A stretch of DNA of 64,000 bases from the NCBI GenBank assembly GCA_030324005.1, contig JARDVH010000124.1, forward strand, positions 17,795,323 through 17,859,322, written 5' to 3'. How positions within the stretch are numbered: position 1 is the stretch's first letter; every line of letters starts with the position of its first letter. Below the pieces are notes generated by a model, which searched no databases, had not been told where the DNA came from, and saw only the letters and a list, made by a program, of their open reading frames with translations. The stretch comes from Negaprion brevirostris (Eukaryota). Shown here in pieces: positions 35,151-35,500 of the stretch. A program made the translations under genes and the position numbers.

Positions 35151-35500
35151 GGTTTGCCAGTCAGTATATCCTCAGTGCGGGAGAGAGAGAGGAAGAAAGG
35201 GCGGTTGTGCAATACTTCCCCCCCCACCCCCCCAAAAAAAGTATTACTGCTGAGATTGAAGAGAGGGTACATTAAAAGTTGGTCCGGGAACACTTTAGTA
35301 CCGATGTGTCCACATCGTCCGGAGACAATCCATCTATGCGGTCACTTTATCACACGGCTGAAAAGTTGTGCAAACGACTTGTTAGTTCATGAGCTAATTA
35401 GTGCTGATATCACATCAACAGCTTCCACTGAAGCCCTGTAATGGCTTGATGATTGGTCGCTATTACTCGCCTTGAGGTTGAGGGAAGACTCTTAAGTGCG
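35151..35500 (-). promoter_or_regulatory. Emx2 5' leader / proximal promoter with upstream ATGs and a palindromic homeodomain site
   Basis: Directly upstream of the ATG. Contains minus-strand ATGs at 35415, 35390, 35333, 35315 and 35272, and CTAATTAG at 35394-35401. The TSS cannot be determined, and a gap lies at 35507-35661. Confidence 0.6.

What the first reader, a model, noticed from the sequence alone, without database searches (positions are those of the whole stretch)
35295..35480. Stack of tiny uORFs in an apparently ultra-conserved Emx2 leader block
Seen on the minus strand: start-stop ATGTGA (35415-35410), palindromic CTAATTAG (35401-35394), ATG-AAC-TAA (35390-35382) and MDCLRTMWTHRY* (35333-35295). 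From memory (unverified), the human EMX2 5' UTR has a closely similar block (..GCGACCAATCATCAAGCCATT..ATGTGA..CACTAATTAG..CATGAACTAACAA.TCGTTTGCACAACTT..ATGGATTGT) retaining all three ATGs. Inference: an ancient translational-control cassette, possibly doubling as a homeodomain/CCAAT autoregulatory DNA element. This is the best candidate here for an under-described mechanism.
Basis: partly seen in the sequence, partly recalled or inferred. Interest (0 to 1): 0.7.

Follow-up and report, generated by a model that had tools for sequence, protein, structure and literature searches.

The report
Ancient Emx2 promoter with conserved uAUG
This conserved stretch in front of a shark's Emx2 gene is likely the gene's core promoter (its mouse and human counterparts are already catalogued), its two tiniest reading frames are probably by-products of DNA-binding sites, and only the third upstream start codon, which is also kept in mouse, fish and the sister gene Emx3, may act as a mild brake on translation.

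Summary
All coordinates are right, and the block is conserved to mouse (64 of 73 sites, by eye). It is not under-described. Mouse Emx2 is in the hyperconserved-leader set, where 75 of 82 CAGE reads start inside the annotated leader. The stretch holding uORF1 is a published HOX/PBX 'EMX2 promoter' probe. CCAAT, TAATTA and an initiator-like site are spaced like a core promoter (-87, -31, predicted +1 at 35369), which would leave both tiny uORFs outside the main mRNA. Their triplets are no more conserved than the flanks (P 0.18), and mouse Emx2 translation efficiency is above average. Not found in my searches: the block is shared with the paralog Emx3 (score 62, 0 of 2000 shuffles), which lost both tiny uORFs but kept CCAAT, TAATTA and the third start ATG-GAT-TGT. 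That start also shows in mouse and in 3 of 4 long Emx2 read-through ORFs, while its length and frame vary. The start site was not mapped and no ribosome evidence was found.

The parts
35450..35458 (-). CCAAT box with full NF-Y consensus (RRCCAATSR); first C at 35456, -87 from the predicted main start
   Evidence: The same consensus lies at L003:1214 in Emx3, 55 nt before TAATTA (56 nt here). NF-Y binding is inferred.
35404..35427 (-). Homologue of the human 'EMX2 promoter' HOX/PBX gel-shift probe; contains tiny uORF1
   Evidence: 19 of 24 identical by eye to the probe in PMC2585084. The TGAT half-site is kept; the TTAT HOX core reads TGAT in this shark.
35410..35415 (-). uORF1, start-stop ATG-TGA, weak context (-3 T, +4 T); predicted to lie upstream of the main start (-46)
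   Evidence: Kept in mouse and organism C; absent from Emx3.
35394..35401 (-). CTAATTAG palindrome; TAATTA at -31, homeodomain site and/or TATA-like element
   Evidence: TAATTAG kept in mouse and Emx3. Role inferred.
35382..35390 (-). uORF2, ATG-AAC-TAA, weak context (-3 C, +4 A); predicted -21
   Evidence: Kept in mouse and organism C; absent from Emx3.
35367..35372 (-). Initiator-like BBCABW; predicted main transcription start at A 35369
   Evidence: motif match; same hexamer class in mouse by eye; only an aligned CA in Emx3. Predicted, not mapped.
35295..35333 (-). uORF3, 12 codons, starting ATG-GAT-TGT (-3 T, +4 G); predicted first AUG of the main mRNA (+37); second in-frame ATG at 35315
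   Evidence: Start kept in mouse, organism C, Emx3 and teleost ORFs.
35102..35272 (-). 56-codon out-of-frame ORF overlapping the CDS start, weak context; apparently lineage-specific
   Evidence: Kept in organism C; no such ATG in Emx3 or in the 400 mouse letters seen.
34763..35150 (-). Emx2 coding exon 1
   Evidence: (76-86% identical to named EMX2 among the top hits); splice joint to exon 2 in a contig.
33073..33257 (-). Emx2 coding exon 2 (homeodomain N-part)
30445..30612 (-). Emx2 coding exon 3

Best explanation
The block is likely the core promoter and first bases of the Emx2 mRNA, inherited from before Emx2 and Emx3 split, with the two tiny uORFs probably passengers of DNA-binding sites and only the third start codon (ATG-GAY-TGY) likely read as a leaky upstream AUG that would mildly damp translation. 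Shown: the motifs, their spacing and their conservation. Taken from papers: HOX-factor binding to the human uORF1 stretch, and mostly internal starts in the mouse leader. Inferred: NF-Y binds at -87, a homeodomain factor or TBP binds TAATTA at -31, and most transcripts start near 35369, so uORF1 (-46) and uORF2 (-21) are only in minor longer transcripts. Ribosomes would then meet uORF3 first, in a middling context, and reach the Emx2 start by leaky scanning or by re-initiation over the 144 nt after its stop.
For: (1) Geometry: CCAAT 35456, TAATTA 35400, initiator-like A 35369; Emx3 keeps the CCAAT-TAATTA spacing (55 against 56 nt). (2) Mouse leader NM_010132, whose 5' end aligns at about 35436: 7 of 82 refTSS reads at the annotated end, 75 in 3 internal peaks, EPD promoter overlap summing to 1. 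(3) The human uORF1 stretch is a published 'EMX2 promoter' probe, shifted by nuclear extract and supershifted by anti-HOXA7; HOXA10/PBX2 binding is reported second-hand. (4) The paralog alignment scores 62 against 22.1 +/- 3.3, 0 of 2000 shuffles; it keeps TAATTAG and ATGGATTGT and loses both tiny uORFs (L003 is Emx3). (5) Triplets are no better conserved than flanks (P 0.18). (6) Third start: a 10-base identical island in mouse after an unalignable spacer. Two teleost Emx2 ORFs begin MDCL 63 codons upstream, and a third fits a shifted frame of the same start (one of 240 compatible 4-mers in 160,000): 3 of 4 ORFs with extensions of 55 codons or more. Footprints in 2 of 5 long-extension Emx3 ORF groups; control 1 hit in 5172 residues. 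(7) No RNA structure (z -0.67, -0.14, 0.05).
Against: The start site is predicted, not mapped. The positions of the three internal mouse peaks were not visible, the CAGE came from ES/iPS cells and has only 82 reads. Longer transcripts exist: the mouse RefSeq leader includes all three ATGs, and one contig of a run guessed to be RNA covers 35244-35430 and runs on upstream (strand unknown). Mouse RNA-seq reads in the upstream half of the leader are not reduced (ratio 1.17). The NF-Y plus TAATTA spacing also occurs once elsewhere in the window (2 of 10 strict sites). Emx3 has no full initiator match at the aligned place. The one shark-mammal change beside uORF1 breaks the TTAT HOX core but spares the ATG. 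For uORF3: no ribosome evidence found, Emx2 log2 TE is +1.03 in mouse mesoderm, length, stop and frame are not conserved, 3 of 5 Emx3 groups, a bird-like Emx2 ORF and one Emx1 ORF show no footprint, and the teleost evidence is read from protein translations, not DNA.
Confidence: 0.6

Rival explanations
1. Pure DNA element: the third ATG is also a passenger, and ATGGAYTGY is a transcription-factor or downstream promoter motif.
For: Nothing after codon 3-4 is conserved (6 codons in mouse, 12 in shark, in frame with the CDS in two teleosts). Translation efficiency is above average. No uORF is listed in two Ribo-seq supplements. Emx3 carries the 8-mer twice in tandem, the second copy overlapping a reversed CCAAT.
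Against: Its distance from the predicted start varies (+28 mouse, +37 shark Emx2, +44 Emx3), unlike a fixed downstream core element (established knowledge). Shark-mouse identity begins exactly at the A of ATG. The Ribo-seq lists are weak nulls for a frame of about 6 codons.
Confidence: 0.2
2. One reading: the long leader is the main mRNA and all three uORFs act together as a translational brake or switch.
For: All three ATGs and both tiny stops are kept from shark to mouse, and the other roughly 300 mouse leader letters seen hold no ATG. The mouse RefSeq 5' end lies upstream of them. A contig covers them in organism C with all starts and stops intact.
Against: Conservation is no better than flanks, contexts are weak, both tiny uORFs are lost in Emx3, 75 of 82 mouse CAGE reads are internal, uORF1 sits in a published protein-binding DNA probe, and TE is +1.03.
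Confidence: 0.15
3. The block is an IRES-like or structured RNA element that enhances translation.
For: The mouse leader is marked bicistronic-active, and translation efficiency is above average.
Against: No folding signal, no Rfam match near threshold, and PMC9456764 finds promoter or splice elements in 85 of 90 such active leaders.
Confidence: 0.05

Closest known systems
Hyperconserved 5' UTRs (Byeon et al.; 589 mouse leaders) and their reinterpretation as promoters (Akirtava et al. 2022, PMC9456764; Hoxa9 as type case)
   Same: Mouse Emx2 is itself in the tested set, bicistronic-active, with mostly internal starts and an EPD promoter. Hoxa9 likewise has a conserved CAAT box upstream of its real start.
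   Different: No E-box in the Emx2 leader. Emx2 was not named in the passages of either text that I searched (0 main-text hits in the preprint). The paralog conservation and the upstream AUG were not seen discussed.
HOXA10/PBX2 element of the human EMX2 regulatory region (Troy 2003, Sarno 2005; seen second-hand in PMC2585084 and PMC2387222)
   Same: The 24-nt probe is the homologue of 35427-35404 and contains uORF1.
   Different: The shark copy lacks the TTAT core; binding in shark is untested.
Conserved upstream AUGs / sequence-independent uORFs of developmental regulators (e.g. Ptch1 uORFs, PMC5316868)
   Same: Start codon kept over long distances in a middling context, peptide not conserved.
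   Different: Ptch1 uORFs repress about sixfold and were tested by mutation. Here no repression is shown, and codons 2-3 are kept while stop and frame are free.
Duplicated conserved non-coding elements shared by vertebrate paralogs (recalled, no call)
   Same: A non-coding block alignable between paralogs that split before sharks and bony fish.
   Different: Those are mostly described as distal enhancers; this one sits at the promoter and leader.

Membership tests
Hyperconserved transcript leader (h5UTR) | Mouse RefSeq leader overlapping at least 250 nt of high-scoring PhastCons elements | tested here: met
   Mouse Emx2 is listed among the tested hyperconserved leaders; definition. Met for the mouse orthologue, by listing.
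CCAAT/TATA-like/initiator core promoter | NF-Y consensus 60-100 nt and an AT-rich element about 30 nt upstream of an initiator | tested here: met
   -87, -31 and +1; spacing rules from established knowledge; +1 chosen by motif.
CCAAT/TATA-like/initiator core promoter | Capped 5' ends map at the initiator | tested here: inconclusive
   75 of 82 mouse reads are internal but their positions were not visible; only contigs were available for sharks.
CCAAT/TATA-like/initiator core promoter | Promoter activity in a promoterless reporter | not testable with these tools
   Emx2 was not among the four leaders named as tested in PMC9456764.
Regulatory uORF (uORF1, uORF2) | Start and stop more conserved than flanks | tested here: not met
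   P 0.18 for 12 sites, 0.11 for 15, one shark-mouse pair; lost in Emx3.
Regulatory uORF (uORF3) | Start codon conserved beyond flanks | tested here: met
   Mouse, organism C, Emx3 and 3 of 4 long Emx2 ORFs.
Regulatory uORF (uORF3) | Ribosome occupancy | tested here: inconclusive
   No EMX2 uORF in two supplements; two more were unreadable or cut.
Regulatory uORF (uORF3) | Represses the main ORF | tested here: inconclusive
   log2 TE +1.03 in one tissue argues against strong repression; no mutation data.
Conserved-peptide uORF | Peptide sequence and length conserved | tested here: not met
   Only the first three residues are shared; lengths 6, 12 and fused in frame.
IRES or structured leader | Stable conserved secondary structure | tested here: not met
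   z -0.67, -0.14, 0.05; Rfam hits far below threshold. Covariation not tested.

The most novel reading that the evidence does not exclude
ATG-GAY-TGY is a translated upstream start older than the Emx2/Emx3 duplication, kept for the initiation event and its first three codons while its stop and frame drift freely (short uORF in shark and mouse, in-frame N-terminal extension in some teleosts). Homeodomain factors binding the overlapping promoter would shift the transcription start and so decide whether two more uORFs enter the mRNA, coupling start-site choice to Emx protein dose.
Probability: 0.2. Interest if true: 0.6.

Novelty: new member of a known kind. Interest (0 to 1): 0.3.

Why it matters
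Whether hyperconserved vertebrate leaders act as RNA or as promoter DNA is disputed (PMC9456764 against Byeon et al.). The Emx2/Emx3 pair offers a natural filter: what survived the duplication is promoter-like motifs plus one start codon, and not the tiny uORFs. That gives a small, testable case in a dose-sensitive patterning gene (dose sensitivity recalled). If the third ATG is a passenger too, this is an ordinary conserved promoter that is already catalogued.

Tried and rejected
DNA search of the own genome found the block once (1 match); the paralog copy came only through the protein search. The metagenome scan gave 331 pattern matches and no relative. No RNA holder is on record: 15 of 20 rows are guessed RNA, and their word shares were not used as evidence. 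Read laying gave contigs only: 1 of 4 runs covered the block, so holes and depths say nothing; reads were laid only up to 35430, so cover upstream of that is open. The Emx1 leader (L004) reads N where the third start would lie, so it could not be compared. A search with the P0015 extension found no further leader read-throughs. Folding and Rfam were negative. An ATF4-like design using the overlapping ORF at 35272 was rejected as not conserved. A DPE reading of the third motif was rejected because its spacing varies. That the variable sites of ATG-GAY-TGY are wobble positions was not counted, since my search pattern assumed it. PMC9020933 is retracted and was not used. PMC2799550 gave no start-site passage. 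Supplements not seen that may bear on uORF translation or start sites: PMC13010147 (too large), the cut part of PMC8216458, the Byeon tables, Duffy 2022. Troy 2003 was not held; Sarno 2005 was not looked up. Searches for a description of Emx2 uORFs or of Emx2/Emx3 leader homology; judged from listings only, none was on topic. Earlier scan notes: nothing relevant.

Full report
Setting. The window holds a complete Emx2 gene on the minus strand: start at 35150, coding exons 35150-34763, 33257-33073 and 30612-30445, with the first splice joint seen in a contig. Exon 1 matches named EMX2 proteins. The genome is a shark's: the paralog at L003 is 100% identical over exon 1 to a catshark cluster and 98% to basking-shark emx3. 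L004 is a third paralog, which I call Emx1 from recalled sequence features.

Observation. Two more ATGs lie at 35315 and 35272. The stack is not clearly beyond chance: at least 4 ATGs in 73% of 5000 shuffles and 244 of 853 tiles, and at least 2 tiny uORFs in 11% of shuffles and 36 of 853 tiles. Start contexts are weak for uORF1 and uORF2, middling for uORF3 (+4 G) and adequate for the CDS (-3 A).

Conservation in orthologues. Dataset S3 of PMC9456764 prints the mouse leader (400 of 526 letters). By eye its 5' end aligns at about 35436; 64 of 73 core sites are identical, with one extra base in mouse; a spacer of different length follows; then ten identical bases begin exactly at the third ATG. 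All three ATGs are kept, but the third frame stops after 6 codons in mouse. One contig from organism C covers 35244-35430 with two differences, both inside uORF3 (one silent, one Arg to Trp, the residue mouse also has); all starts and stops are intact. That run is only guessed to be RNA, and the other 3 of 4 runs did not cover the block.

What is already known. Mouse Emx2 is one of the tested hyperconserved leaders and is marked bicistronic-active. Only 7 of 82 refTSS reads lie at its annotated 5' end, 75 lie in three internal peaks, and EPD promoter overlap sums to 1. If the EPD window is -49 to +10 (recalled) and this is a single promoter, its start lies at least 50 nt inside, past both tiny ATGs (mouse positions 22 and 48). 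The paper argues that such leaders are mostly promoters (passages). The CAGE came from ES/iPS cells and is thin, and RNA-seq reads in the upstream half are not reduced (ratio 1.17). Separately, PMC2585084 uses a 24-nt human 'EMX2 promoter' probe that is the homologue of 35427-35404 (19 of 24 identical). It was bound by nuclear extract and supershifted by anti-HOXA7 but not anti-PBX2 in granulosa cells, and the paper cites HOXA10/PBX2 binding in endometrial lines (passages). uORF1 is the junction of its TTAT and TGAT cores. In shark the TTAT is changed while the ATG is kept, which counts slightly the other way.

Promoter geometry. A full NF-Y consensus (first C 35456), TAATTA (35400) and an initiator-like hexamer (A at 35369) stand at -87, -31 and +1. 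On that reading uORF1 is at -46, uORF2 at -21 and uORF3 at +37. The +1 is chosen by motif and not mapped; seven other initiator-like hexamers lie in the range scanned, and the NF-Y plus TAATTA spacing occurs at 2 of 10 strict sites in the window.

The paralog filter. The Emx3 leader aligns with 35430-35151 at score 62 against 22.1 +/- 3.3, reached by 0 of 2000 shuffles. It keeps the NF-Y consensus and TAATTAG 55 nt apart (56 here), lacks both tiny uORFs, and has a 12-codon uORF with the same first nine bases and an aligned stop, 156 nt before its CDS. Since sharks and bony fish both have Emx2 and Emx3, the block predates their split.

The third start in other species. No DNA could be fetched, so I used database ORFs that read through the leader. 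Of 92 ORFs with an Emx2/Emx1-type start, 12 have extensions of 15 residues or more and 4 of 55 or more. Two of these 4 begin MDCL exactly 63 codons upstream, in frame with the CDS and with no stop. A third begins with a shifted reading of the same start (one of 240 compatible 4-mers in 160,000). The fourth, bird-like, shows nothing in 92 codons. Among five Emx3 groups with extensions over 40 codons, a carp-like cluster (7 of 7 members) and a catfish-like cluster (3 of 3 extended members) carry frame-shifted footprints compatible with ATG-GAY-TGY; three others do not, nor does one Emx1 ORF. The control gave 1 hit in 5172 residues. These are inferences from protein letters. So the start and two codons are kept, while length, stop and frame are not.

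Function at the RNA level. No structure and no Rfam family. In mouse E11.5 mesoderm Emx2 has log2 TE +1.03, adjusted p 0.006, and is classed neither high nor low (supplement row and passages of PMC5316868), which argues against a strong brake in that tissue. No EMX2 uORF appears in the supplements of PMC4739776 (0 hits in 3 files) or PMC10032668 (only an EMX2OS ORF in 6 files); these are weak nulls for so short a frame.

Verdict. The block works like, and by listing belongs to, the hyperconserved leaders that are largely promoters. The two tiny uORFs fail the conservation test and are probably passengers, present only in longer minor transcripts. The third start is a credible ancient upstream AUG but is not a conserved-peptide uORF, and its translation is not shown. 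The Emx2/Emx3 homology and this start were not found described in listings. Interest 0.3.

Noticed in passing
L003:1345-1365: The Emx3 leader carries the 8-mer ATGGATTG twice in tandem, giving two in-frame starts; the carp-like Emx3 cluster shows two footprints 12 nt apart as well.
   Followed up: partly
P0103, P0132: In two teleosts the conserved upstream ATG is in frame with Emx2 with no stop, so a 63-residue N-terminally extended Emx2 could be made.
   Followed up: no
L004:945-965: The third paralog also has a CCAAT at about the same distance from its predicted CDS, but no TAATTA 55 nt later; the rest of its leader reads N.
   Followed up: partly
window 35735 and 35709, minus strand: A second CCAAT and a reversed one lie about 300 nt further upstream, a possible distal promoter for longer leaders.
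   Followed up: no
window 54835, minus strand: Another strict NF-Y site followed by TAATTA at 50-62 nt, away from the Emx2 gene; may be chance.
   Followed up: no
window 34109-34249, 34369-34412 and 34502-34652: Low-depth contigs of runs guessed to be RNA lie in intron 1; could be pre-mRNA, DNA or an antisense transcript like mammalian EMX2OS.
   Followed up: no
window 35102-35272, minus strand: A 56-codon ORF overlaps the Emx2 start out of frame; its ATG is kept in organism C but not seen in mouse or Emx3.
   Followed up: partly
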